This document shows, piece after piece, positions 11,160 through 22,415 of a stretch of DNA of 45,626 bases. The notes under the pieces are model-generated. The model was not told the DNA's origin, did no database searches, and was given only the letters and a program-made list of their open reading frames with translations. The DNA lies in the IMG/VR virus record IMGVR_UViG_2579779076_000011. One strand, given 5' to 3'. This DNA comes from a virus (lineage: Duplodnaviria; Heunggongvirae; Uroviricota; Caudoviricetes). Numbering within the stretch: position 1 is the stretch's first letter; every line of letters starts with the position of its first letter. A program made the translations under genes and the position numbers.

Positions 11160-12083
11160 TTATTGGTTTCTGAGGAAAGCGATTCTTGAAAGGGTCATTT
11201 GCGTCTGGCAGTCGACCATTTTCTTGACTTCAGCATCTGTTCCCTGCATTGAAACTTTACCGCACATAGCATCCTTAGTTTTGATCCACTGACGCTGAGA
11301 AGGCAGCAACTCTTTTTTCTTCGCCGGCGTTAACCTGCCCCAGACTGTATTCAAATCAGAGTCAGCATTCGCAAATGCCATTCGGGACTGATCAAGGCTT
11401 TCAGCTTTTTGCGGCTGAAGTTGTGCCTGCCTCTCTATTTGCTTCTCCGCCTCATACCTGGCCTGTTCCTGTGCCCTGAGTTGCACCTGTTGTTCCGCTT
11501 CAATTTGACTCTGTTGGGCATCCTTAGCCTGCTGGATTTTCTGCTGCTCAACGATCGGGTTGATAATGGAAAGCGATGTCAGTAAAGCGGCGCCCACTGA
11601 TATCGGATTATCAGAAGAGGTTTTTACAAAAACGTTTTTCTGATCGTCGGTCGCCTGCACGGTGTAGGTGATACGTTTTGAAAAGGCGTTTGCGTTGTTC
11701 TCCAAAAACAGATTTTCCATTTGCTTATCGAGATTACGATTAAAATTCTTTCTGTAAGCATCAGAAAGCTGGACGTACTCGTTCGCAGGTAGAGTCATCG
11801 TCACGGTCCCTTCACAAGTTTTCATTGTGCTGCCCGTGTCACTTGATGTTGTGGAGATTTCAGAGACGGCTAGTTTGATCTTGTCCAGTGTGCTTCGTTT
11901 GGTCTGATTAGTGACATCAGGGTATTTATCGACCTGTTCAGAGAGTCCTTCATAAGCAGATTTTTTTAATAAATCCATGAGAGCTGATTGGGTCATTTCC
12001 GAAGAACAACCGATCTCATCTTTTTTGTTATCACAGCCTGTAAGGGCAATGGCGAGTAAGAGTACTGAGTATTTTAATCTCAT
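11160..12083 (-). CDS. lipoprotein with C-terminal DUF1311/LprI-like (lysozyme-inhibitor-like) domain
   Basis: Signal peptide plus lipobox LTGC; Gln/Ala-rich coiled linker; C-terminal segment resembles the DUF1311 fold. Good SD. Cargo gene. Confidence 0.55.
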   Translation of the reverse strand: MRLKYSVLLLAIALTGCDNKKDEIGCSSEMTQSALMDLLKKSAYEGLSEQVDKYPDVTNQTKRSTLDKIKLAVSEISTTSSDTGSTMKTCEGTVTMTLPANEYVQLSDAYRKNFNRNLDKQMENLFLENNANAFSKRITYTVQATDDQKNVFVKTSSDNPISVGAALLTSLSIINPIVEQQKIQQAKDAQQSQIEAEQQVQLRAQEQARYEAEKQIERQAQLQPQKAESLDQSRMAFANADSDLNTVWGRLTPAKKKELLPSQRQWIKTKDAMCGKVSMQGTDAEVKKMVDCQTQMTLSRIAFLRNQ

Positions 12084-12535
12084 GAATTCCCTTTAGAGTA
12101 AGGATTGGTTTTTAAGACGCGGTCTGTAATCAGTTCCGAGAGCTACAGTAAACAACGCTGAGCACTGAACGCATCACAGGCAAGGTAAAAGGTGATATCG
12201 GCAAAGGCTGTGAAACCTTTAATTCAACAGATGGGAACGGTATGCACAGGATCCTGTAACGACGCTCCCAAAACCGGAAACCTGCAGGGCATGTTTTCGC
12301 TGCTGAACTTAATATACGAACCTGCACTATCATGAACATATTTTATATCGTTATACCCCGAGTGATTGTGCCCGGCAATGGATAGTGTCCTGGAGGAACT
12401 ATTTCTACTGTAAAAGGTAGACATTTAATTTCAGTGTGGAATTATTCCCTGCTGTTAATAACAATGGCTGTATATGGCACCGAGTAGGCATTGATTTTTT
12501 TAAATTCAATTGCGTTATTAATATTACTTCATTTT

Positions 12536-13096
12536 TTATTTTAAAGTACAGCCTGCCCGAAATGCACTGCTAATTTCAACATATTCCGCTCTGGCCGTAC
12601 CTCTAAGTTTCTGAGACTCACGTTCAAAACTCGCCAAATCTTCCTTACATTTTGCCGAAGTAGACTGGAATCCTTTCCCGCACATCTGAAATGTGACTGT
12701 CGGATCCGCAAATCGGGTACGCTGGGCGTAAGCCTGGCAAACAGCGGATGCCCTCGCTTGTTTTTGTCGTGGGCTTAACGGGCGTGCTGGTGTGGCCTGT
12801 TCTGCCCTCTCCATTTTCAGGCGGTAGCAGCTTAAATTACGAGAGGCGATCACCTTTTTAATAGCCTGGGCGCGGCGATAATTTGAATTAAATTCAGGAT
12901 GAGATGATGGATTAAGGTTGAGCAATGGCTCTATATTATCTTCTGCCTGGCAAAGCTGTGAATCGGTGTACTGCGCAAGTTTTGCCGCCTCGATTGCAGC
13001 CGGATCTGGTTGTGAATTTTTTTGGGTATGGCTTACACATCCGGACAGCGTAAATCCAGCGGTCAGTGCTAAGATGATTTTTGATATTCCGTTCAT
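12536..13096 (-). CDS. lipoprotein, unknown function
   Basis: Signal peptide with lipobox LSGC; several Cys; SD AGGAA. Confidence 0.5.
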   Translation of the reverse strand: MNGISKIILALTAGFTLSGCVSHTQKNSQPDPAAIEAAKLAQYTDSQLCQAEDNIEPLLNLNPSSHPEFNSNYRRAQAIKKVIASRNLSCYRLKMERAEQATPARPLSPRQKQARASAVCQAYAQRTRFADPTVTFQMCGKGFQSTSAKCKEDLASFERESQKLRGTARAEYVEISSAFRAGCTLK

Positions 13097-13227
13097 TTTC
13101 TATTCCTGTTTCGATGTTTTGGTGGTGCACTTTCCCCACTCGGATAAGATTATGCATTCGGATTCGAGTGATGAGGCAACGCCATATAGGCGATGGCAGC
13201 CAGCACGATGGTGATTAAAATATTTAA

Positions 13228-14463
13228 TCAGAATTTCCGTTCTTTCCAGCGTTTAACCAACGCGGCCATGTTCAGCGGCCATAATTTAGGCTCAATCACT
13301 TTGCCTTCAAACATCGCGCCGAGCTCAATACCTAGGGCAAAATGTACGGTCATTGTTTCAGGGTTGACGGCCATCAGCTCTGCGTCTAGTAAGTCGTGTA
13401 TCGTTGGAGTCAACAACAGGCCATTATCAGCGCTAAAATTGCCTGAGGTAGCTGGCTCAATGTGCGCCGCTTGCAATCGTTCGCCGTTCTGCCAGCCAGT
13501 CACCGCGCAACGGCCAGCAAAATTATTCCATACCCATTCAACAAACTGCATATGCGCCGTCGTGTCGCGCTGCTCAACGATGCGCTGCGCGGTTCGGGTA
13601 CTGTGGAGTTTGACAGGTTGGCCAAGCGCGGGCGCGGGTTTCTCTTCCTCCACGACGACCACTACTTCCTGCGACATGATGATTCGATCATCGGCTACCA
13701 GTTCCGGAACAACGTCGGCCAGCTTCTCGGCTTCTCGGATGATTTGCTTTTCTTCCTGATCATCCAGGTACCGCTGCACCAGTTCAATGGTCGTGGTGGC
13801 TTCATGCTGGTGTTTGTGGATATAAAGCTCAACATCACGACGCTGGCTGGCTGGAATGTGTTTTGCCAGAAAATCCTGTAGGACGCGATTATCCAGCTTT
13901 GTCGTAACTTTTGATGTCATGCTCACAGAATCATACCGTTTCGGTGTTTCCATCTGCGTTGATTGCAGGCCTGGTAATTCGGTGTTGATTTGAGCGGAAA
14001 CCTTGCGCGGGATGATTGTCGGCGTAAATGCTGGCGTGCTGGCCTGGGACGTGCCACGGCGACGGGCATTCTCCCAAAGGGCTTCTGTTTCAGGGTTTTT
14101 GCGTGCGCCTGGCTTTTGCATAGGCATAGTGCGAATCAGCGCTTCCCAGCCCATATTGACCTTCTGTTTGGCCTCGCGGCGTTTATCGGCCAGCGTAGGT
14201 TTTGATGGTCGTTTTTTGGAGAGCGCTTTCTCTGGTTTTAATTTGATGCCGCGCGATAAACCATTTATCAGTGTTGGATGCACTGATAAGGCTTTGGCCA
14301 ATTGCAAACCGTTTAAATTGCTGCCATCTGTATAAGCGTACATAAACAAATCCGCCCAGCCATCATGTTGAGGGGTCATACCCACGCTGGTTAAGGCTGC
14401 GCGAATCTCTTTTTTGCGAGCTTTGTCCAAGTTAAATTTTGGGGTTTTATTTCGCTTAGTCAT
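13228..14463 (-). CDS. HNH-type nuclease domain protein (C-terminal HNH), N-terminal basic low-complexity region
   Basis: C-terminal GRCAVTGW..AAHI..NGLLLTPTIHDLLD fits an HNH-like motif; N-terminal ~250 aa Lys/Arg-rich with no recognised domain. Confidence 0.55.
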   Translation of the reverse strand: MTKRNKTPKFNLDKARKKEIRAALTSVGMTPQHDGWADLFMYAYTDGSNLNGLQLAKALSVHPTLINGLSRGIKLKPEKALSKKRPSKPTLADKRREAKQKVNMGWEALIRTMPMQKPGARKNPETEALWENARRRGTSQASTPAFTPTIIPRKVSAQINTELPGLQSTQMETPKRYDSVSMTSKVTTKLDNRVLQDFLAKHIPASQRRDVELYIHKHQHEATTTIELVQRYLDDQEEKQIIREAEKLADVVPELVADDRIIMSQEVVVVVEEEKPAPALGQPVKLHSTRTAQRIVEQRDTTAHMQFVEWVWNNFAGRCAVTGWQNGERLQAAHIEPATSGNFSADNGLLLTPTIHDLLDAELMAVNPETMTVHFALGIELGAMFEGKVIEPKLWPLNMAALVKRWKERKF

Positions 14464-14543
14464 TTCAGTTCAGCACACTAATAATGGTAACCATGACCGC
14501 AGCAAACACGATCCCCGAAATATTCATTACTGCCATATATTGG

Positions 14544-15395
<852 letters not shown>

Positions 15396-15464
15396 TCATG
15401 TCAATTGACAACTTATAGTTCCCACTAGTTAGCATTAAGATTTTTACAGTGAGGAATAATCAAT

Positions 15465-15516
15465 GTCCGCTCCTGGCACAGAGTGGACGAACAACTGAAG
15501 ACCCGCTGTGAGCGAG
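15465..15516. repeat. structured repeat copy A (partial): hairpin + AACTGAAG spacer + CCGCTGTGAGCGAG
   Basis: GTCCGCTC-N8-GAGTGGAC stem, then GAACAACTGAAGAC, then CCGCTGTGAGCGAG; shares the core with copies B and C but lacks the distal arm. Confidence 0.45.
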
Positions 15517-15675
15517 AAACAGACATCACAACTCACAAGGATTATACGCAGTTTGTTATCCAAACATACGGGTGCCAAGTGTTATAATCCGGCACTAACA
15601 GCATGATGCTTGGAAGTACATTTAAATGTAAAATGATAGTGTACTCTGACTGAAGCCTGGTAAAAAGGAACTGAT

Positions 15676-17055
15676 ATGTACAACAACCTCTATGCCCTCA
15701 CAGAAAGCCTTTTCTGGGTTGATCGACTTTTAGATCAGGAATATGAAAATATTGGATTGAATGAATTGCTAATTGAGTTAGATGAATATAATAAAAGAAT
15801 AGATTCACTGATTATCGAGCAAGCAAATTCTGTACAGGAGTCTCGGCTAAATGTTTACATGGCGGGAAATCGTAATATTGAAAGGTATAAGAGTGGACTG
15901 TTTTCAATGGACAGAGTCATTCTTGATGATGTTCTGTATTCATTGAGCCTACGATACAGAGTGAGTCTAACAGAAAATGCATTTGAAAAAATTATTGTAA
16001 GCGATAGAAAAGAGAAGGTTGAACATCTCAGGAAGGAAATTGCTAGATTTATCAGGTTTGCTAAAGAAAACTTTGATCTTATCCGTGGTGAGTTTATCGT
16101 TTTTGTACGCAGCGAATCTTCTATTAAAGATTCGGAGAGGGCCAATGGAATTTTAGACGATAACTCTGATGCTAATTTTATATATCGATATCTCCCTCCT
16201 AACATTGCCCGTCTTTATGAAAATAGACTATCCGTAAAGAATATAGAACGTCTAGGTAATACAAATAAAATTCGGTTATTAAACAAAAATGTTTTATCTA
16301 ATGAAATTATGTTGGAAATTAAAGACTGTGAAAGTTTATATACAAATGGATATATGTATCAACATATAAAAAATGCCATTGATAATGATGATGGCTCCAT
16401 ATCTATGGAGCTTGTCATGGGAAATCATAGCGGAAAAAAAAGTTATGAACGGTGGGTGCAGGGAGCAAAAAACCGTACGGTTCTCTTTCATTATAAAAAC
16501 CTTATTACTGACCTTAACCAAGCGCATTCATGTAGAGCATCCCTGGGGGCATATTGCCCGTTTCATGGAGAGATTCTTCGTAAACTTGATCAAAAGAATG
16601 AAGTTCAGAGGGTTAAACTCTCTATAGACGTTCCATTCTTAGAGGGACTGACTCCAAGTGAACTCTACAAAATTAGAACTGACTACGAGCCGAGTTTTAA
16701 TTCTTTCCGCTCTGTACTACGTGAAGCTGCGTATGATATAGAAGCAGAAAGTGATCCATATAAGAGACAACTAATAAATCAACATTTTGTCGAGCGGGTG
16801 TGGGATGAAGGATTGACAGATATTGAGCAAAAAATACAAGCCTATAAGCGGAAGAGTAAAAAAGAACTTTTTCTTAACAGTGTGCCTTCATTGATAGGTT
16901 TTATTGGTGCACCAAATCCAGTGTCGTTGGCTACAGGAGCTTTTACGATTCTAAAAGATGTCTTTAATATTACAAGCCATTCTTCAGAAATAAAGAGCCA
17001 CCCTTCATATTTCCTTCTCATGATGTCAAAAGCCAAAAACAAACCTTATGACTGA
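15676..17055 (+). CDS. hypothetical protein (459 aa), AT-rich orphan cargo gene
   Basis: SD AAGGAA before ATG; Lys/Asn/Ile-rich composition typical of horizontally acquired cargo; no recognisable catalytic motif. Confidence 0.6.
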   Translation: MYNNLYALTESLFWVDRLLDQEYENIGLNELLIELDEYNKRIDSLIIEQANSVQESRLNVYMAGNRNIERYKSGLFSMDRVILDDVLYSLSLRYRVSLTENAFEKIIVSDRKEKVEHLRKEIARFIRFAKENFDLIRGEFIVFVRSESSIKDSERANGILDDNSDANFIYRYLPPNIARLYENRLSVKNIERLGNTNKIRLLNKNVLSNEIMLEIKDCESLYTNGYMYQHIKNAIDNDDGSISMELVMGNHSGKKSYERWVQGAKNRTVLFHYKNLITDLNQAHSCRASLGAYCPFHGEILRKLDQKNEVQRVKLSIDVPFLEGLTPSELYKIRTDYEPSFNSFRSVLREAAYDIEAESDPYKRQLINQHFVERVWDEGLTDIEQKIQAYKRKSKKELFLNSVPSLIGFIGAPNPVSLATGAFTILKDVFNITSHSSEIKSHPSYFLLMMSKAKNKPYD

Positions 17056-17170
17056 GGCAGTAGAAAATAAAGTGAAAATATATTCACTTAAGAAAGATGG
17101 TTCTAAAGGGACATAATTAGATTAACCCAGTGACCTGTTCCCCTTGAATCAACATAGGCTGTTGTTAGCT

Positions 17171-17234
17171 ACTTCCGCTTCTGACACGAAGCGGACAAAA
17201 ACTGAAGGTCCGCTGTGAGCGAGGAGCGGAAGTT
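17171..17234. repeat. structured repeat copy B (complete)
   Basis: ACTTCCGC..CCGCTTC-TGACAC-GAAGCGG..AACTGAAGGT..CCGCT-GTGAGCGAGG-AGCGG-AAGTT; the outer ends ACTTCCGC / GCGGAAGT are also inverted repeats. Confidence 0.5.
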
Positions 17235-17377
17235 GATTTTATTGAGAGTAAAACAGATCTATAGTAAATGGTCTTGTTATGTAGGGGATTTACGATAATT
17301 TTACTACCAAGGTCGTTAAAAATTCATATGAAATATCAACGATAGTGACCTATTTTTCATAAGGCCACTATATGAAT

Positions 17378-18040
17378 CTATTGTTCTATTTTAATTTTAT
17401 TTAACGTTATAGGGGCTGGGTTATAGCTAGGTATATATAATATCTCACTCCCTAGCTTGCGCTCTTTTATATTTACTTCTTTAGCGACAAGGTTACCGTC
17501 ATACAACCTAATAATCACGTAGTCTTTAGATTGATCATGAAAGTAACTAAATTCTTTTTTTAATGACGCTTGTTGTAAACCAATTAAGAAACTAAATGTC
17601 ATTATGGCAATAAGGGGAAGGGTTGCAGACCAAATTAAATAACTTGGATTACGTTTATGATTTTTAACAATTTTGTATATAATATAAGTAACTGTTGCTA
17701 TCGATAAACTTAAAACGAAAAAACCACCATATTCAGTCTTATGTCTATAAGACTGAACAATAAAAACAATCATGATAAAAACTGTAACTGCAGTAACTTT
17801 AACTGCTTTTACTTTACTTTCAGGCCATGGAGTAAAAAACATCAACATAACACAAATTATATTAAAAAATAAATATGACATACCCACGAATAAAAATTTA
17901 GAATCTAACGTTATAAACTCCATAGGATAATCAAAATGATATGCATAGCCATATTCAAATGAAATTGCAGACATATAAGATAGAACAGTTATTGCCAATA
18001 TTAGCAAGGCTTCCTTGCTTTTTATAAAGTCAATTATCAT
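17378..18040 (-). CDS. multi-pass membrane protein, unknown function (AT-rich orphan)
   Basis: Five to six hydrophobic helices in the first ~160 aa, soluble C-terminal ~60 aa; no clear SD (start uncertain). Confidence 0.5.
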   Translation of the reverse strand: MIIDFIKSKEALLILAITVLSYMSAISFEYGYAYHFDYPMEFITLDSKFLFVGMSYLFFNIICVMLMFFTPWPESKVKAVKVTAVTVFIMIVFIVQSYRHKTEYGGFFVLSLSIATVTYIIYKIVKNHKRNPSYLIWSATLPLIAIMTFSFLIGLQQASLKKEFSYFHDQSKDYVIIRLYDGNLVAKEVNIKERKLGSEILYIPSYNPAPITLNKIKIEQ

Positions 18041-18364
18041 GATGTTTGTTTTTTAATGAATAAAATAATCACTTACCAGACAGTTAATCTTCTTAATTGT
18101 CATTGTGTTAAGTGAACCCCGAATTTTTCTCAGTTCTTCTGAAGAAGTCCTCATGTATATGATAACAACCAAAAAAATTTTTTTCACTAATTATACTAAA
18201 ATCCATGAAGAATCAGCAGTGTGAAGCAGGGAGAACCTCTAACAAGAGACGCCGTCATTTTGTAAATTTCCCGGCAAACCAGAACATCTGCTTTTAGACA
18301 TAGGATTCAATGTGCTATTACGGCGAGCTGTTCCCACAGATTGATGGAGATAGATGTTAGCAAT

Positions 18365-18433
18365 GCCCGCTTTTGGTACGAAGCGGGCAAGCTAACTGAG
18401 TTGAAAGTTCGCTGTGAGCGAGGAGCGGAAGTT
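18365..18433. repeat. structured repeat copy C (complete)
   Basis: GCCCGCTT-N8-AAGCGGGC hairpin, spacer, then TTCGCTGTGAGCGAGGAGCGGAAGTT; the 3-prime 24 nt are identical to copy B. Confidence 0.5.
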
Positions 18434-18518
18434 CGTAATTGTTCTCGCAGCTAGGGTAGCTAAAAGACACGGCAGGCAAATGTCTACATGTAGGATACAC
18501 TTGCTATTATCAAGAATT

Positions 18519-19298
18519 TTAGTCCTGAAGCATTTTAACTTTCTTCTCATGTTTTTTATATTCGCCTTTTATCCATTCAGGTTCTTCCCGAATAGCTGAG
18601 CGCATACAGTATGTTGGGATATCATTCCAGAAAGCTGTAATCGCATCTGCAAACTCTATAAACTGTGTTTCTGTAACCTCAAGTTGCTCATGACGTAGAC
18701 TAAATCTGTAGCCTCTTGGAATATTGATATCCTGATAATACTCAGGATGCGCGACGGAAAGCACCCGATGGGCATGGCCATCACCGTGCTTATAAACATT
18801 AACCACTTGGCGACAGGCATCGATTTTTTCGTAATAAGCCTTGCTGGTGATATCCATCCCAATCCATTCTAGAATTTCAATTAGCCTTGGGAAGCTAATG
18901 TCCCAGATCATCGATGTTACGGATTTAGCGTCGAGCCAATGGCTGAATTCTCTGATACACTTCTCTCTAAGTTCCTTGTCGAACTGATGAAACATTCCTG
19001 CTGTCAGAGCAAGTGAAACCGTATTTTTCATATCACTGAGAGCAATCCAATGTGAAATTCCTTCATCATGAGCCTGTTCACAGATAGCCCCTTCGTCGTC
19101 ATAATCGGGGTCAAAACGCTTACCGGCGGCCTCATAGTAATCTTGTTCTCTCTGCCTGGCTTCAGCTTCAAGATCAGAATCGCTAAACTGCGAAAATAGA
19201 CGCTTTCTGGCTTCAGCAACATAAAAATTGTGTTTGTCGAGGAAGTAAGACCGATCAATGGTTGCAAAATAAAAAAGTGAAAAATCTTTGTTGCTCAT
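18519..19298 (-). CDS. hypothetical protein (259 aa), orphan cargo gene
   Basis: Good SD (GAGGGAG) before ATG 19298; acidic protein with His-rich patch (HGDGHAH); no family recognised. Confidence 0.6.
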   Translation of the reverse strand: MSNKDFSLFYFATIDRSYFLDKHNFYVAEARKRLFSQFSDSDLEAEARQREQDYYEAAGKRFDPDYDDEGAICEQAHDEGISHWIALSDMKNTVSLALTAGMFHQFDKELREKCIREFSHWLDAKSVTSMIWDISFPRLIEILEWIGMDITSKAYYEKIDACRQVVNVYKHGDGHAHRVLSVAHPEYYQDINIPRGYRFSLRHEQLEVTETQFIEFADAITAFWNDIPTYCMRSAIREEPEWIKGEYKKHEKKVKMLQD

Positions 19299-19712
19299 GG
19301 GGATCTCCCTCGTTTTGTCAGTTGTACAAGCCCCTGGAAGTAGGCTACTAATAAAGAAAAAATTACCTTTGAATAACTGTGCAAGATAGCAGTACGCCTA
19401 AAAGTAGTGCAAGTATCCCAACCAGGATAACGATGCGTTTTCAAATATCTGACTTAACGCTTGCGATATCCGCTCTGGCAACAAAGTAGACTGTCAGATT
19501 AAATTTGTCTTCACGCCATAGATGTGTCAGCTCATATCTTATCTAATACACACAACATTCTCTCATTCTTAGAGAATTAATCTTTTAAGGGTAGGTGTTG
19601 ACGTTAGAACAAAAGAATAGATATTTTTGAAGCATATAATATGAGCTATAACCATAGGACGCATATAAAAGCTTACGGTGTGGTCTTATAATTTGGCACA
19701 AATGATTTACTA

Positions 19713-19739
19713 ACCCGCTTCGGCGGGTCTTCTTTTTTA
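19713..19739 (+). terminator. intrinsic terminator (ACCCGC-TTCG-GCGGGT + T-run)
   Basis: GC stem with TTCG tetraloop followed by CTTCTTTTTTAT; a TATAAT hexamer lies ~25 nt upstream at 19686-19691. Confidence 0.5.
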
Positions 19740-19807
19740 TAGACTTCACGATGTGAAAACGAATAATAAATTGTGCAAATAATGCAGTTTTATTATTCGA
19801 GGTAATT

Positions 19808-20449
19808 ATGAAAACCCTCTATGAGGACTGGCCTGAAACTTTCGTTAGCCGATTAGATATGTTACGAGCTCTGGATGATCGCGGCTCGACCCGGAGGCTC
19901 TATCTTGAGCGGACCGGGGCAATATTTGACGCTCTGGCAGAAGAGATACGTACAGCCGTTACCAGGCATCCTGAAATCGACGCGAGTGAACTTGATATCG
20001 GGCCGCTGTATCGCTATTACAAACGTGGAGAAAAGGGGAATCCGCTGGCTGACTTACTTATTGAGTTGGCTCCACCAACTTGTGAACGGGTTCGTATATC
20101 TCCTGAAGTGTACACAATCCCGTATCTGTTTTTTGCACTGTTGATAGCGCAAGGCGCTGACAACGATGCCCGCGATTTTTTCAATATGATGATGCGACCG
20201 TTAATCATCGCCTACCGTTTCAAACAACTGGCGCGTTACCTTGGCACTAAGGGCGGAGGACGACCACAGCACAGATTAAAAAGCGAAGCCATTGAACTGG
20301 CTGATCGTTTTTTTACTGAAAACCCGACAGCGCCATTATCGCGTGGTGTGCAATACATATCCGGTATTTTTGTGGCGAAATACTCTGACCCACCTGCAGC
20401 GTCGACGATTAGAAAATGGTTAATTTCAATTTACAGGAGTGATAAATAA
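19808..20449 (+). CDS. hypothetical protein (213 aa)
   Basis: SD GAGGT before ATG; no recognised motif. Confidence 0.55.
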   Translation: MKTLYEDWPETFVSRLDMLRALDDRGSTRRLYLERTGAIFDALAEEIRTAVTRHPEIDASELDIGPLYRYYKRGEKGNPLADLLIELAPPTCERVRISPEVYTIPYLFFALLIAQGADNDARDFFNMMMRPLIIAYRFKQLARYLGTKGGGRPQHRLKSEAIELADRFFTENPTAPLSRGVQYISGIFVAKYSDPPAASTIRKWLISIYRSDK

Positions 20450-20600
20450 TGACCATAAACGGTTTAATCCCCTATAAAACCGTTTAATAAAATTCACGAC
20501 GTGAATATAATTGTTCATTATTCCCTCATTGTATCTGGCGTTATGACAAATGCCATAAAATACTGTATAAATGTACAGGTAATGGCGTTAGGGGGAAGAC

Positions 20601-20780
20601 ATGAATATTCAAGAATCTATAGGCGAACTACCGGAAACATGCCGGGCTGTTATCAAGCGTAAGGACGGACACATCGTTGGTGTGCGTGTTCTGACTGATG
20701 ATGAACGGATTGCCAGCCTGATGGCGTTTCTCGAGTTGGCAGAAATAGCTGGATATACTATTACACCCCCTGACGCGTAA
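20601..20780 (+). CDS. hypothetical small protein (59 aa)
   Basis: Not in the ORF track (59 aa). Strong SD AGGGGGAAG before ATG 20601; translation MNIQESIGELPETCRAVIKRKDGHIVGVRVLTDDERIASLMAFLELAEIAGYTITPPDA. Confidence 0.4.
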   Translation: MNIQESIGELPETCRAVIKRKDGHIVGVRVLTDDERIASLMAFLELAEIAGYTITPPDA

Positions 20781-20857
20781 AACACGGTATAATATCGGTG
20801 CTGGATTGAACACCCGGCACCATTTTCTGAACACTGCCGCGCCACCTGGAGTTAACC

Positions 20858-21454
20858 ATGGCGCAGCATTCATTTATCAGGGTATCCGGCGGTTCGCTAA
20901 TACCCGCGACACCAGACACGCAACGCTGGTTGACTGAACGAGTCAAACCAGGTGCTGTTGTGTATGCAGATTTCAAACAGGCACGCAATCCCGCGTTTCA
21001 CCGTAAATTTTTCTCACTTCTCAACCTGGGCTTTGATTACTGGCATCCGTCCGGAGGGGCTATTTCTCCTGCGGAGCGCGAACTGGTTCACGGCTACGTT
21101 AAGTTACTGGCGTATTACGGTGGACACGGTGATGTCATGGCAGAGCTGGCTGATCAGTATCTTCTCGATGAGTCGGAAAAGCGCGCGGGGAATATCAGTG
21201 CGGTGAAGTCGTTCGAGGCGTTTCGCGCATGGGCGATTATGGAAGCTGGGTTTTATGACGTTCATCAGATGCCAGACGGCAGTTTGATGCGCGTACCTCG
21301 TTCAATCTCGTTTGCTGCGATGGACGATCTTGAGTTCGGTCAACTGTATTCAGCCGTTTTAGATGTGCTGTGGAATTATATTTTGTTCCGCACGTTTGCC
21401 TCTCAGGAGGCTGCTGAAAATGCTGCCGCGCAGCTGCTGGATTACACATCATGA
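20858..21454 (+). CDS. nin-region-type protein (YbcN/DUF1367-like, tentative)
   Basis: SD GGAG before ATG; 198 aa; position before a small Cys/His protein and a Q-like gene mirrors lambdoid nin regions. Family from memory. Confidence 0.45.
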   Translation: MAQHSFIRVSGGSLIPATPDTQRWLTERVKPGAVVYADFKQARNPAFHRKFFSLLNLGFDYWHPSGGAISPAERELVHGYVKLLAYYGGHGDVMAELADQYLLDESEKRAGNISAVKSFEAFRAWAIMEAGFYDVHQMPDGSLMRVPRSISFAAMDDLEFGQLYSAVLDVLWNYILFRTFASQEAAENAAAQLLDYTS

Positions 21455-21744
21455 AAAAAATCGACCTGAGAAAAGCTGCACGTGGTCGCGCTTGTACTGT
21501 GCGTATCCCCGGTGTGTGCAATCACAATCCTGAAACCAGCGTACTGGCTCATTATCGTCTCGCCGGAACGTGCGGCACAGCCATCAAACCTCACGATATG
21601 CAGGGCGCTATCGCCTGTAGTGCGTGTCACGATGCCATCGACGGACGTACAAAAACGGATTACGAGCACGACTCATTGTTGTTGATGCACGCTGAGGGAG
21701 TTTTCAGAACACTGGCTATCTGGCGCGATGAGGAGTTTATCTGA
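21451..21744 (+). CDS. small Cys/His-rich nin-region protein (YbcO/DUF1364-like, putative metal-binding nuclease-like)
   Basis: 97 aa with CTVRIPGVCNH .. CSACHDAIDG pattern; ATGA overlap with the upstream gene. Confidence 0.45.
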   Translation: MKKIDLRKAARGRACTVRIPGVCNHNPETSVLAHYRLAGTCGTAIKPHDMQGAIACSACHDAIDGRTKTDYEHDSLLLMHAEGVFRTLAIWRDEEFI

Positions 21745-22415
21745 TGAGTAACGAGTATTTATTGGAATATACCCGCATAAAACTGCGCGCTGCATTGCGG
21801 GATTTGTCTGGTGGTTCTAAGGGGCAACTGGAAGCATTGTGTGAGCACCCACCGGCAGATAAAAACGCATACCCACGCAAACATATTCATCGTGTGCAAC
21901 TGGAGGACCGGACCGTTGATGCTCTGGTTACGCCAGTTTACGCTCTGGAAAGTTTTAGCAGACGTCGCCCCGCGCCGCCGATGAATGATTTTGAATTTGC
22001 TGATTCATCCTGGCGGCGTTCTGTGAACTCGCTGGATGCAAGTCAGCAAGCGTGGTTGCGTTATTGCTACGGTGGTAACCTGGCATTCAAACACCAAACA
22101 GCTATTTGTGAGGCTGTCTGGAGTCGCTATAAAGGACACATCCCCGCGTCAACTCAGAGAAAAGTAGTTAAGCGCCTGCTTTCGTTGGTGTGGTTGTCCG
22201 TGCAGGCGGTTGCAGCAGCAAATAAACGCGAGGATTTTAAGGAGATGGCCGGGTCTGCGCTAGCTGGAATGTTGTCTGTTTCTCGTTCCACCTGGTGCGA
22301 AACATACTCCCCGCACTGGGCAGGAATGAAAGAGGCGGTGAGAGCACTTGATGAAATGGCACTTCTTGCAACTTTGCATCACTATCAGAACCATTTAGAC
22401 GATGTTTGCGTATAA
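21744..22415 (+). CDS. putative late-gene antiterminator (Q-like), tentative
   Basis: 223 aa gene immediately upstream of a promoter/terminator-like region and the lysis cassette; SD GAGGAG. Assigned by position, sequence not verified. Confidence 0.4.
   Translation: MSNEYLLEYTRIKLRAALRDLSGGSKGQLEALCEHPPADKNAYPRKHIHRVQLEDRTVDALVTPVYALESFSRRRPAPPMNDFEFADSSWRRSVNSLDASQQAWLRYCYGGNLAFKHQTAICEAVWSRYKGHIPASTQRKVVKRLLSLVWLSVQAVAAANKREDFKEMAGSALAGMLSVSRSTWCETYSPHWAGMKEAVRALDEMALLATLHHYQNHLDDVCV

What the first reader, a model, noticed from the sequence alone, without database searches (positions are those of the whole stretch)
18519..20449. Two further orphan genes (259 aa and 213 aa) with an orphan promoter/terminator between them
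The 259 aa acidic protein (minus strand, strong SD) and the 213 aa protein (plus strand) have no recognisable motifs. Between them is an AT-rich region with a TATAAT hexamer (19686-19691) followed ~25 nt later by a strong intrinsic terminator (19713-19739), which would give a very short transcript, possibly a small RNA or an attenuator for the 213 aa gene.
Basis: partly seen in the sequence, partly recalled or inferred. Interest (0 to 1): 0.45.

Follow-up and report, generated by a model that had tools for sequence, protein, structure and literature searches.

The report
Prophage cargo gene, gene stub, regulator
The supposed orphan promoter and terminator are the leftover tail of a truncated phage gene with its own terminator, while the two flanking "orphan" genes look like a diverged HEPN-fold (RNase-type) prophage cargo protein and a probable DNA-binding protein that always sits just upstream of an SOS-controlled small gene.

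Summary
The window is an E. coli lambdoid prophage, 100% identical to E24377A and SE11 over 17300-20900. Both ORFs, their Shine-Dalgarno sites, the AT-rich spacer and the terminator (19713-19738) are real.

**Small-RNA or attenuator reading: not supported.**
- The TATAAT is at 19687-19692, has no -35, and contains the stop codon of a 23-codon 3' stub (19620-19691).
- The stub belongs to a phrog_3941 gene that is intact (92 aa) in 21 E. coli genomes and is followed there by the same terminator.

**259-aa protein.**
- It has no family hit by sequence.
- The family keeps N-x3-H at a helix end plus D-x3-R, but lacks the canonical Arg.
- It is solo cargo in prophages and plasmids.
- In alpha- and beta-proteobacteria it is the second gene of overlapping MmeI-like/helicase/T5orf172 (DnmA-YeeB-YeeC-type) operons.
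- I infer a defence-type function.

**213-aa protein.**
- It belongs to a small family restricted to mobile elements, with a C-terminal GGRP-arm and three-helix, HTH-like domain.
- Enterobacterial homologues are followed by two AAACSGTTT palindromes; in four prophage lineages a LexA box and small gene come next.
- I infer a regulator.

All functions are inferred, none tested.

The parts
18519..19298 (-). 259-aa cargo gene (phrog_19541). Diverged HEPN-fold protein with invariant H104, K108, R111, N167, Y169, K170, H171, G172 and G174.
19469..19619 (.). Conserved spacer of about 150 bp. It recurs in other prophages of this group, left of different cargo. Here it is fused directly to the gene stub. 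It contains a decayed hairpin and a TTGACG hexamer at 19598.
   Evidence: Match from query base 2170 in 455 genomes. Same segment at about L002 6003-6152. Breakpoint at about 19619/19620.
19620..19691 (+). 3' stub of a truncated phrog_3941 gene: 23 codons plus TAA (DIFEAYNMSYNHRTHIKAYGVVL*). It is preceded by in-frame stops.
   Evidence: Translation. Intact 92-aa gene at L003 5604-5882 and in 21 E. coli genomes. phrog_3941 E = 2.6e-42. DNA alignment.
19687..19692 (+). It overlaps the stub's stop codon and is not a supported promoter element.
19713..19738 (+). Intrinsic terminator of the truncated gene. It forms the left edge of the conserved 213-aa/nin/Q block.
   Evidence: Identical behind the intact gene in L003 and L038, with terminator-like hairpins at the equivalent place in other lineages.
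19740..19767 (+). Weak sigma-70-like promoter candidate for the 213-aa gene: TAGACT-16-AATAAT.
   Evidence: The -10 lies in the conserved left arm of the inverted repeat. Function is inferred only.
19760..19799 (+). Conserved inverted repeat or hairpin, CGAATAATAAA-N18-TTTATTATTCG, ending 1 nt before the SD of the 213-aa gene.
   Evidence: Fold -13.5 kcal/mol, z = -3.9. Present in all E. coli variants and in altered form in Klebsiella and Salmonella. Covariation is weak, 1 of 15 pairs.
19808..20449 (+). 213-aa gene (phrog_5215). Helical N-terminal part plus a C-terminal GGRP arm and three-helix, HTH-like domain.
20457..20485 (.). Two AAACSGTTT palindromes 20 bp apart, starting 8 nt after the 213-aa stop codon. 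Candidate operator.
   Evidence: Present in 21 loci including Klebsiella. Four sites in the window against 0.51 expected.
20561..20578 (+). LexA (SOS) box TACTGTATAAATGTACAG. It overlaps an ATGACA-17-TATAAA promoter-like site upstream of the 59-aa gene. Adjacent to the finding.
   Evidence: unique in the window against 0.05 expected. Conserved in L005, L008, L010 and L067. The ATGACA-17-TATAAA site was read directly from the sequence.
20601..20780 (+). 59-aa gene (phrog_340). Candidate SOS-controlled antirepressor. Adjacent to the finding.
   Evidence: Gifsy-type precedent. Small repressor without a peptidase domain.

Best explanation
The interval is the junction between a variable, mostly minus-strand cargo island of an E. 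coli lambdoid prophage (11160-19298) and the conserved block that leads into the nin/Q genes.

**(a) The 259-aa gene**
- It is a stand-alone cargo gene, probably expressed from the prophage.
- It encodes a diverged HEPN-fold protein. Its likely active site is built from N167-x3-H171 at the end of a helix, plus D107-x3-R111 with H104 and K108, instead of the canonical R-x4-6-H.
- By analogy with HEPN Abi and toxin proteins and with HEPN domains linked to restriction-modification systems, it most likely acts on RNA as a defence or exclusion effector or sensor.
- The same family is built into MmeI-like/helicase/T5orf172 operons in other proteobacteria.

**(b) The 'orphan promoter/terminator'**
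- It is not a transcription unit.
- A deletion joined a conserved spacer to the last 23 codons of a phrog_3941 gene. This left that gene's stop codon, which reads as part of TATAAT, and its native terminator.
- The terminator now simply insulates the downstream block.

**(c) The 213-aa gene**
- It encodes a helical protein whose C-terminal GGRP-arm and three-helix domain probably binds DNA.
- The likeliest targets are the paired AAACSGTTT palindromes right after its stop codon, or the inverted repeat at its own start.
- That would make it a regulator of the adjacent LexA-controlled 59-aa gene, which is a candidate antirepressor.

**Shown versus inferred**
- Shown: gene reality, fold class, motif conservation, the stub and terminator origin, and the conserved cis elements and gene order.
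- Inferred: RNase or defence activity, DNA binding, and the regulatory link.
For: **Prophage identity and layout**
-.
- PD-T4-3 lies in the same island, E = 6.9e-138.

**259-aa protein**
- 86 clusters with a single-sequence search, and 777 with a profile.
- Invariant residues are listed.
- AF2 model pLDDT 94.2.
- The motif position matches the published HEPN description: motif at the end of helix 3, a polar residue after the R position, and E-x3-[KR] in an earlier helix. Families that keep H but lack R are known.
- One member is named 'HEPN AbiU2-like' by NCBI.
- There is no conserved neighbour in 26 viral loci.
- Neighbours include PD-T4-3, PD-T7-1, PD-T7-5, retron reverse transcriptase and toxin-antitoxin genes.
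- The gene is kept intact beside a decayed prophage.
- Overlapping four-gene operons occur in Bordetella, Rhizobium, Cupriavidus and one further lineage.
- These match the DnmA-YeeB-YeeC cluster type.

**Stub and terminator**
-.

**213-aa protein**
-.
- Fixed position before nin/Q in E. coli, Klebsiella and Salmonella.
- Paired palindromes.
- A LexA box before the following small gene in five loci.
- A distant homologue sits between int and alpA of a satellite, again followed by two palindromes.
- The prophage repressor candidate has an HTH domain only.
- Gifsy precedent.
Against: **259-aa protein**
- No sequence-level match to any HEPN Pfam model, even for the member named 'AbiU2-like'.
- The canonical Arg is absent.
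- I could not superpose the structures, so I cannot confirm that H171 sits at the HEPN catalytic position.
- It is not in PADLOC.
- The B. subtilis DnmA-YeeB-YeeC cluster gave no phage protection.

**213-aa protein**
- The model is only moderate: pLDDT 76, pTM 0.55.
- No significant match in BFVD, in PDB sequences or to Hin.
- No Pfam HTH hit in 45 members.
- The palindromes could be bound by another protein.

**Inverted repeat**
- Covariation in the repeat before the 213-aa start is weak.

**General**
- No expression data were available.
Confidence: 0.6

Rival explanations
1. TATAAT at about 19687 is a live promoter, and transcription ends at 19738. The product is a 40-60 nt small RNA or an attenuator leader for the 213-aa gene.
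For: A perfect -10 hexamer lies about 20 nt upstream of a good terminator.
Against: - The hexamer 17 bp upstream is TATAAA, a poor -35, and there is no correctly placed extended -10 TG (read directly from the sequence). The scan does not call this site.
- The hexamer is absent in relatives, which read TCATAAC or TCATAAT.
- It overlaps the stop codon of a homologous gene remnant.
- No Rfam match.
- An attenuator would need alternative pairings, and none is apparent.
Confidence: 0.04
2. The deletion junction created a fusion promoter. TTGACG at 19598 comes from the spacer, and GATATT or TATTTT comes from the stub. It would drive a non-coding stub RNA of about 105 nt ending at the terminator.
For: - The promoter scan calls TTGACG-16-GATATT and TTGACG-18-TATTTT, each 9 of 12.
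- The -10-like bases are specific to the window: relatives read GATGCT.
- The terminator lies about 105 nt downstream.
Against: - The scan found 11 promoter-like sites against 6.7 +/- 3.2 expected, so a 9-of-12 hit is close to background.
- The 112-nt fold is unremarkable, z = -1.8.
- The arrangement exists in only about 6 of 5426 genomes.
- No Rfam match.
Confidence: 0.08
3. The 259-aa protein is an anti-defence factor. It would be a solo copy of the subunit found in MmeI-like/helicase/T5orf172 operons, carried by phages and plasmids to poison or decoy that system in recipient cells.
For: - The same family is an internal subunit of four-gene operons.
- Solo copies sit on 131 plasmids.
- In a Pantoea plasmid the gene lies among ArdA, KlcA-type antirestriction, PsiA and PsiB genes.
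- Tad2-like genes occur near some viral copies.
Against: - In the window the gene points against the phage early and late operons, inside a block of minus-strand cargo with PD-T4-3. That fits expression from the prophage rather than early in infection.
- In the Pantoea plasmid it is on the opposite strand to the leading-region genes.
- All putative catalytic residues are kept in the solo copies.
- It is retained intact next to a decayed prophage.
Confidence: 0.15
4. The terminator is a working tR2-like checkpoint. Rightward early transcription must read through it, by antitermination, to reach the 213-aa, nin and Q genes. On this view it is a regulatory part of the phage rather than a leftover. 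This is compatible with the stub origin.
For: - A terminator-like hairpin precedes the 213-aa homologue in all three E. coli upstream variants, and in Klebsiella and Salmonella.
- Its position between the replication genes and nin/Q matches that of tR2 in lambda (established knowledge).
Against: - In this prophage about 8 kb of mostly antisense cargo lies between the replication genes and the terminator.
- The common E. coli variant has a much weaker hairpin, z = +0.5.
- No N-like antiterminator was identified. I did not search for one systematically.
Confidence: 0.25
5. The 213-aa protein does not bind DNA. It would have some other early-phage role, for example acting on a host protein. The palindromes downstream would then belong to another factor, or act as an RNA hairpin.
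For: - No significant HTH match by sequence or profile.
- Weak fold matches.
- In the window the two palindromes can also form a 10-bp hairpin, -9.2 kcal/mol, z = -3.5.
Against: - The most conserved part of the family is G-x2-GGRP-x-H-x2-K-x-EA ... KY-x-D-x-P-x3-TI-x2-WL. It is predicted as three helices after a basic Gly/Arg/Pro arm.
- Paired palindromes specific to each lineage follow the gene in both phages and satellites.
Confidence: 0.35

Closest known systems
HEPN superfamily toxin and abortive-infection proteins (SO_3166 and MNT-associated HEPN toxins; AbiU2, AbiD/F, AbiJ and AbiV; HEPN domains linked to restriction-modification, such as PrrC)
   Same: - All-helical bundle whose best structural matches are HEPN toxins.
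- A conserved His at the end of a helix, preceded by N four residues earlier, and an acidic-x3-basic motif in an earlier helix. This matches the published description.
- Occurs as a single cargo gene in prophages, and inside a restriction-modification-type operon.
   Different: - No Arg 4-6 residues before the His. Position 166 is V or I.
- No HMM-level similarity to any Pfam HEPN family.
- Roughly twice the size of minimal HEPN toxins, with extra N- and C-terminal helices.
- No MNT or antitoxin partner.
DnmA(YeeA)-YeeB-YeeC clusters: an MmeI-family methyltransferase with an SF2 helicase and a T5orf172 nuclease
   Same: Homologues of the 259-aa protein sit in overlapping operons with an MmeI-like enzyme, a 685-aa DEAD/ResIII helicase and a 400-aa T5orf172/MUG113 protein, in defence-island settings.
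   Different: - The published cluster has three genes. The proteobacterial operons seen here carry this extra gene between the MmeI-like gene and the helicase.
- The paper only mentions unnamed 'uncharacterized' neighbours.
- The copy in the window is solo, with none of the partners.
Gifsy-type SOS induction loci (LexA box, then dinI and a small antirepressor), and Tum of phage 186
   Same: - A LexA box preceded by palindromes, located between the replication genes and the late regulator.
- It controls a small protein in a prophage whose repressor is small and lacks a cleavage domain.
   Different: - No dinI or irsA homologue was identified.
- The 59-aa protein could not be compared with GfoA or GftA because no sequences were available.
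- The 213-aa gene upstream has no counterpart in the Gifsy description.
Hin/Tc1-mariner-type 'GRP(R) arm plus helix-turn-helix' DNA-binding domains
   Same: - A Gly/Arg/Pro arm immediately before a three-helix unit.
   Different: - A profile comparison with a Hin C-terminal sequence gives only 6.7% probability.
- No Pfam HTH hit.
- No recombinase or transposase catalytic domain. The N-terminal 140 residues match nothing.

Membership tests
HEPN superfamily | Four-helix up-and-down bundle, often with an insert between helices 2 and 3. | tested here: met
   - AF2 model is all-alpha, pLDDT 94.2.
- The helical hairpin 124-145 lies where the insert is expected.
- Moderate Z; no superposition was inspected.
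HEPN superfamily | R-x4-6-H motif at the end of helix 3, with a polar residue after the R. | tested here: not met
   - H171 is invariant at the end of helix 154-171, and N167 is invariant.
- The positions 4-6 residues upstream are V, V and a variable residue. No Arg is present.
- Families that keep H but lack R exist within the superfamily, for example Parep1/8.
HEPN superfamily | A second motif, E-x3-[KR], in an N-terminal helix. | tested here: met
   D107 is conserved in at least 90% of sequences, and K108 and R111 are invariant, within FHQFDKxLREK in helix 69-118. The acidic residue is D rather than E.
HEPN superfamily | Metal-independent endoribonuclease activity. | not testable with these tools
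   Needs biochemistry.
Pfam HEPN_AbiU2 (the name NCBI gives one member) | Significant match to the family HMM. | tested here: not met
   No Pfam family at E up to 10 for P0225, and none among the 58 aligned members.
Known anti-phage defence systems (PADLOC 2.0) | Match to a system protein model. | tested here: not met
   - No hit for the 259-aa or 213-aa proteins.
- No hit for the operonic 260-aa or T5orf172 proteins; the helicase gave only weak PbeA hits (E 6.5e-5 to 3.8e-4).
DnmA-YeeB-YeeC-type cluster | MmeI-family enzyme followed by an SF2 helicase and a T5orf172 protein in one operon. | tested here: met
   - Met for homologues in L051-L054, L058 and L059.
- In L051 no MmeI-like gene is called, so there only the helicase and T5orf172 genes follow the homologue.
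- Not met for the window copy, which is solo.
   No -35, the hexamer is not conserved, and it lies in a gene remnant. No Rfam family.
Helix-turn-helix DNA-binding proteins (213-aa protein) | Recognisable HTH domain by profile or fold. | tested here: inconclusive
   - Three helices after a GGRP arm.
- No Pfam, PDB-sequence or Hin profile support.
LexA-controlled antirepressor module (adjacent 59-aa gene) | Consensus LexA box at the promoter of a small gene, in a prophage with a non-cleavable repressor. | tested here: met
   - The box is unique in the window and conserved in five loci.
- The repressor candidate has an HTH domain only.
- Antirepressor activity itself is not testable here.

The most novel reading that the evidence does not exclude
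The 259-aa protein would represent an undescribed, Arg-less branch of the HEPN fold. That branch is a fourth subunit of MmeI-like/helicase/T5orf172 (DnmA-YeeB-YeeC-type) defence operons, and it has been captured as a solo gene by enterobacterial prophages and plasmids, either as a one-gene exclusion system or as a decoy against that system. Separately, the 213-aa family would be a new class of mobile-element DNA-binding regulators that gate the 'trigger' gene next to them. That trigger is an SOS-controlled antirepressor in prophages and alpA in phage satellites.
Probability: 0.25. Interest if true: 0.65.

Novelty: new variant of a known kind. Interest (0 to 1): 0.45.

Why it matters
**What is ordinary.** The promoter/terminator part is leftover sequence from modular phage recombination, and it should not be pursued as a small RNA.

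**What is worth following up.**
- About 780 protein clusters, all labelled 'hypothetical', can now be read as a HEPN-like family with an unusual active-site make-up. The family is tightly linked to MmeI-like/helicase/T5orf172 operons. It therefore supplies a candidate missing component for the poorly understood DnmA-YeeB-YeeC systems, whose defence role is disputed.
- The family also gives a directly testable single-gene candidate sitting next to PD-T4-3 in a prophage hotspot.
- The unit made of the 213-aa gene, two palindromes, a LexA box and a small gene recurs across several enterobacterial prophage lineages. It may add a second control layer to antirepressor-type prophage induction. That matters for how polylysogens, including pathogenic E. 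coli, respond to DNA-damaging antibiotics.

Tried and rejected
**Sequence-family and RNA searches**
- Rfam on 17000-22000 at E up to 10 gave only chance snoRNA and CRISPR-repeat hits.
- Pfam, NCBIfam, PADLOC and PDB-sequence searches of both proteins found nothing. The same was true for profiles and for every aligned member.

**Structure searches**
- A BFVD search with the 213-aa model gave no hit below E = 0.17.
- AFDB50 was not available, so the 259-aa model was compared with PDB only.

**213-aa C-terminal domain**
- A profile of the C-terminal domain alone, searched against PDB sequences, returned only designed helical repeats.

**Locus searches**
- The genome-contig scan returned only two loci.

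**Ideas tested and dropped**
- Covariation test of the 19760-19799 hairpin: 1 compensated pair of 15, so not informative.
- TTCACGAYGTGAA palindromes at 19746 and 20487 as a shared operator: the first copy is not conserved in relatives.
- The 220-aa membrane protein as a partner of the 259-aa protein: they co-occur only in this one prophage lineage.
- Literature search for the protein accessions and PHROG ids: no paper found.
Full report
**Setting**

The stretch 17300-20900 is 100% identical to E. coli E24377A, SE11 and three other complete genomes. The surrounding annotation shows a lambdoid-type prophage. In order it carries:
- a Cro/CI-type regulator, YdaT and a DnaB-type helicase;
- a run of mostly minus-strand 'hypothetical' cargo genes;
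- DUF1367, DUF1364, antiterminator Q, holins and terminase.

The cargo island (11160-19298) contains a PD-T4-3 defence gene, E = 6.9e-138, and an HNH protein. The whole 17300-20900 arrangement, which includes the 259-aa gene, is present in only 6 of 5426 E. coli genomes. The block starting at 19469, which includes the 213-aa gene, is present in 461. The finding therefore straddles the border between variable cargo and conserved backbone.

**Checking the observation**

Confirmed:
- both ORFs and their Shine-Dalgarno sequences;
- the acidic character of the 259-aa protein (pI 5.33);
- the AT-rich spacer (36.5% GC);
- the + strand terminator, ACCCGC-TTCG-GCGGGT plus a T-run at 19713-19738, with a hairpin energy of -11.1 kcal/mol.

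Not confirmed as described: the TATAAT is one base further right, at 19687-19692, and has neither a usable -35 nor an extended -10. The scan does not call it.

**The 'orphan promoter/terminator'**

- I aligned the 360 bases upstream of 213-aa homologues from different loci. The window is homologous, from about 19620 onwards, to the 3' end of a + strand gene that is intact in E. whittamii (L003 5604-5882, 92 aa) and in a viral contig (L038).
- That gene is a genuine phage family, phrog_3941, E = 2.6e-42 over its full length.
- It is intact and annotated in 21 E. coli genomes, for example GF43, where it directly precedes the 213-aa gene.
- The window keeps only the last 23 codons, DIFEAYNMSYNHRTHIKAYGVVL*, preceded by in-frame stops.
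- The terminator is identical behind the intact gene.
- Immediately left of the breakpoint lies a spacer of about 150 bp (19469-19619). In other prophages it sits left of a different cargo set made of a 201-aa protein, ImmA and an XRE regulator.
- The simplest history is a deletion that fused this spacer to the tail of the phrog_3941 gene.
- Rfam finds nothing.
- A junction-created promoter, TTGACG-16/18-GATATT/TATTTT, cannot be excluded. It would give a stub RNA of about 105 nt, but it is near background for this scan.
- Terminator-like hairpins also precede the 213-aa homologue in the other E. coli variants (weaker there), in Klebsiella and in Salmonella. A tR2-like insulating role is therefore plausible.

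**The 259-aa protein**

Sequence searches
- Sequence libraries give nothing except phrog_19541, of unknown function.
- A single-sequence search finds 86 clusters across gamma-, beta- and alpha-proteobacteria. A profile search finds 777.

Alignment and model
- The alignment shows invariant H104, K108 and R111 within FHQFDKxLREK. It also shows an invariant N167-V-Y-K-H171-G-x-G.
- The AlphaFold model is confident (pLDDT 94.2, pTM 0.89) and all-helical.

Comparison with the reference HEPN analysis
- It reports a polar residue after the R, an E-x3-[KR] motif in an earlier helix, and frequent helical inserts between helices 2 and 3.
- It also describes families that keep the H but lack the R.
- Here N167-x3-H171 closes helix 154-171 and is followed by the G-D-G loop. 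D107-x3-R111 lies in the preceding long helix, and a helical hairpin (124-145) lies between them.
- The position of the Arg is always V or I.
- I therefore place the protein in the HEPN fold class as a variant without the canonical Arg. This rests on fold matching and motif geometry, not on an HMM match; none exists.
- I could not inspect a superposition.

Genomic context
- In 26 viral contigs the gene has no conserved neighbour and occupies different cargo positions.
- Its neighbours include PD-T4-3, PD-T7-1, PD-T7-5, a retron-type reverse transcriptase, NsnC, ShosT, RES, SocA, PIN and Tad2-like proteins.
- It occurs in 27 of 5426 E. coli genomes and on 131 plasmids.
- It stays intact beside a decayed prophage.
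- In a Pantoea plasmid it lies in the leading region among anti-restriction genes, but on the opposite strand.

An unexpected operon
- In Bordetella, Rhizobium, Cupriavidus and one further lineage, the homologue is a gene in an operon with overlapping stop and start codons.
- The order is: MmeI-like type IIG enzyme (917-927 aa), this protein (257-260 aa), a 685-aa DEAD/ResIII helicase, and a 400-aa T5orf172/MUG113 protein. In the Bordetella locus (L051) no MmeI-like gene is called; a 2.8-kb gap precedes the homologue.
- In two lineages other defence genes flank it: GmrSD/HEC-05 in L052 and PDC-S19 in Bordetella L051.
- This is the DnmA(YeeA)-YeeB-YeeC cluster type. It is described as conserved and defence-island associated, active against some phages in Vibrio, and inactive in B. 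subtilis.
- The extra HEPN-like gene is not described there. The paper mentions only unnamed 'uncharacterized' neighbours.

Most likely function (inference)
- The orientation runs against the phage operons, the gene sits within a defence-rich island, and the catalytic-looking residues are retained.
- These favour a lysogen-expressed exclusion or abortive-infection-type effector acting on RNA.
- A decoy or anti-defence role is the main rival.

**The 213-aa protein**

Family and structure
- Only 14 clusters at 90% identity, all Enterobacteriaceae.
- 54 representatives in an exhaustive profile search of 1.84 billion proteins, nearly all 200-240 aa.
- The conserved core is C-terminal: G-x2-GGRP-x-H-x2-K-x-EA ... 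KY-x-D-x-P-x3-TI-x2-WL.
- It is predicted as three helices after a Gly/Arg/Pro arm.
- There is no Pfam, PDB-sequence, BFVD or Hin-profile support.
- DNA binding is therefore a reasoned guess, at about 60%.

Context, which is more telling
- In E. coli, Klebsiella and Salmonella prophages the gene always sits just before the nin-type genes (DUF1367 or NinB) and Q.
- Eight bases after its stop codon, every enterobacterial locus with the 213-aa homologue except Salmonella (21 fetched loci) has two AAACSGTTT palindromes exactly 20 bp apart. In Salmonella the first copy is degenerate (CAGTTTAAT). There are four sites in the window against 0.51 expected.
- A consensus LexA box follows, before a small gene. 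In the window it is TACTGTATAAATGTACAG at 20561-20578, unique against 0.05 expected. It overlaps an ATGACA-17-TATAAA promoter-like site that I read directly from the sequence.
- The box is conserved in E. coli, Klebsiella and Salmonella, and in an unrelated phage whose small gene is different.
- A distant homologue lies between int and alpA of a P4/PICI-like satellite. It too is followed by two palindromes, GATATAAAGGGGTTTATATC, 28 bp apart.
- The prophage's repressor candidate is 142 aa with an HTH domain only and no peptidase domain. This resembles the Gifsy repressors, which are inactivated by LexA-controlled small antirepressors encoded between the replication and late-control genes.

Working model (inferred)
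- The 213-aa protein is a DNA-binding regulator that acts on the palindromes, and so on the neighbouring 'trigger' gene.

Upstream of its own start
- A conserved inverted repeat (19760-19799; -13.5 kcal/mol, z = -3.9) overlaps a weak promoter-like site.
- Covariation is too thin to tell whether it acts as an RNA hairpin or as an operator.

**Verdict**
- The small-RNA or attenuator interpretation is not supported and has an ordinary explanation.
- The two 'orphans' are not featureless. One is a variant HEPN-fold cargo protein with an informative link to MmeI-like/helicase/T5orf172 operons. The other is a probable regulator embedded in a conserved SOS-controlled module.
- Every functional statement is inference from fold, motifs and gene context. 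No expression or biochemical data were available.

Noticed in passing
window 20561-20780: A perfect LexA box (TACTGTATAAATGTACAG) overlaps an ATGACA-17-TATAAA promoter-like site in front of a 59-aa gene (phrog_340). The box and small gene recur after the 213-aa homologue in E. coli, Klebsiella and Salmonella, and in an unrelated phage. Together with the small HTH-only repressor at 4368-4796, this looks like a Gifsy-type LexA/antirepressor induction switch.
   Followed up: partly
window 20457-20485; also 21 loci, e.g. L008 5650-5678: Two AAACSGTTT palindromes exactly 20 bp apart start 8 nt after the stop codon of the 213-aa gene. They are conserved even where the flanks differ. The satellite homologue has a different pair (GATATAAAGGGGTTTATATC, 28 bp apart; L063 5667-5715).
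   Followed up: partly
L052 2242-9041; L058 2251-9026; L059 2221-9023; L051 5001-9026: A conserved four-gene operon with overlapping stops and starts: MmeI-like type IIG enzyme, the 260-aa HEPN-like homologue, a 685-aa DEAD/ResIII helicase, and a 400-aa T5orf172/MUG113 protein. In L051 (Bordetella) no MmeI-like gene is called, so only the last three genes are seen. This is a DnmA-YeeB-YeeC-type cluster with an extra gene. The last three genes have no confident PADLOC 2.0 match; the helicase gives only weak PbeA hits.
   Followed up: partly
L063 3582-10663 (also L064, L065): A distant homologue of the 213-aa protein sits between the integrase and alpA of a P4/PICI-like satellite. The satellite carries int, the homologue, alpA, pRha/AntA, Ash and a primase.
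   Followed up: no
window 14544-15395 (-): A PD-T4-3 (GIY-YIG) anti-phage defence gene, E = 6.9e-138, next to an HNH protein (13228-14463) and an LprI-like protein (11160-12083). The stretch between the replication genes and the 213-aa gene behaves as a cargo or defence hotspot whose content differs between related prophages: ImmA/XRE pairs, ETEC_3214, ClbS and GIY-YIG genes.
   Followed up: partly
window 19469-19619; about L002 6003-6152: A spacer of about 150 bp is conserved in hundreds of E. coli prophages and, weakly, in phage 2H10. It sits at the edge of different cargo sets, and may be a recombination boundary sequence. In L002 it starts with an 8-bp-stem hairpin (GTCCGCTC...GAGCGGAC) that has decayed in the window.
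   Followed up: partly
window 18362-18390: An 8-bp GC-rich hairpin (GCCCGCTT-TTGGTAC-AAGCGGGC) lies about 130 nt downstream of the 259-aa stop. It has no T-run on either strand. It gave a chance-level Rfam CRISPR-DR28 hit (23 bits, E about 1).
   Followed up: no
window 20798-20830: A hairpin (GGTGCTGG...CCGGCACC) followed by ATTTTCT lies between the 59-aa gene and DUF1367. It may be a weak terminator that would make the SOS-controlled gene a separate unit from nin/Q.
   Followed up: no
L003 5965-6641: In the E. whittamii genome the 213-aa gene is split into two ORFs of 123 and 127 aa. This is either a frameshift pseudogene or an assembly error.
   Followed up: no
window 15676-17055 (+) and 17378-18040 (-): Two further cargo genes have no informative family match. 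One is a 459-aa protein. The other is a 220-aa predicted multi-pass membrane protein with only weak 7TMR-DISM similarity.
   Followed up: no
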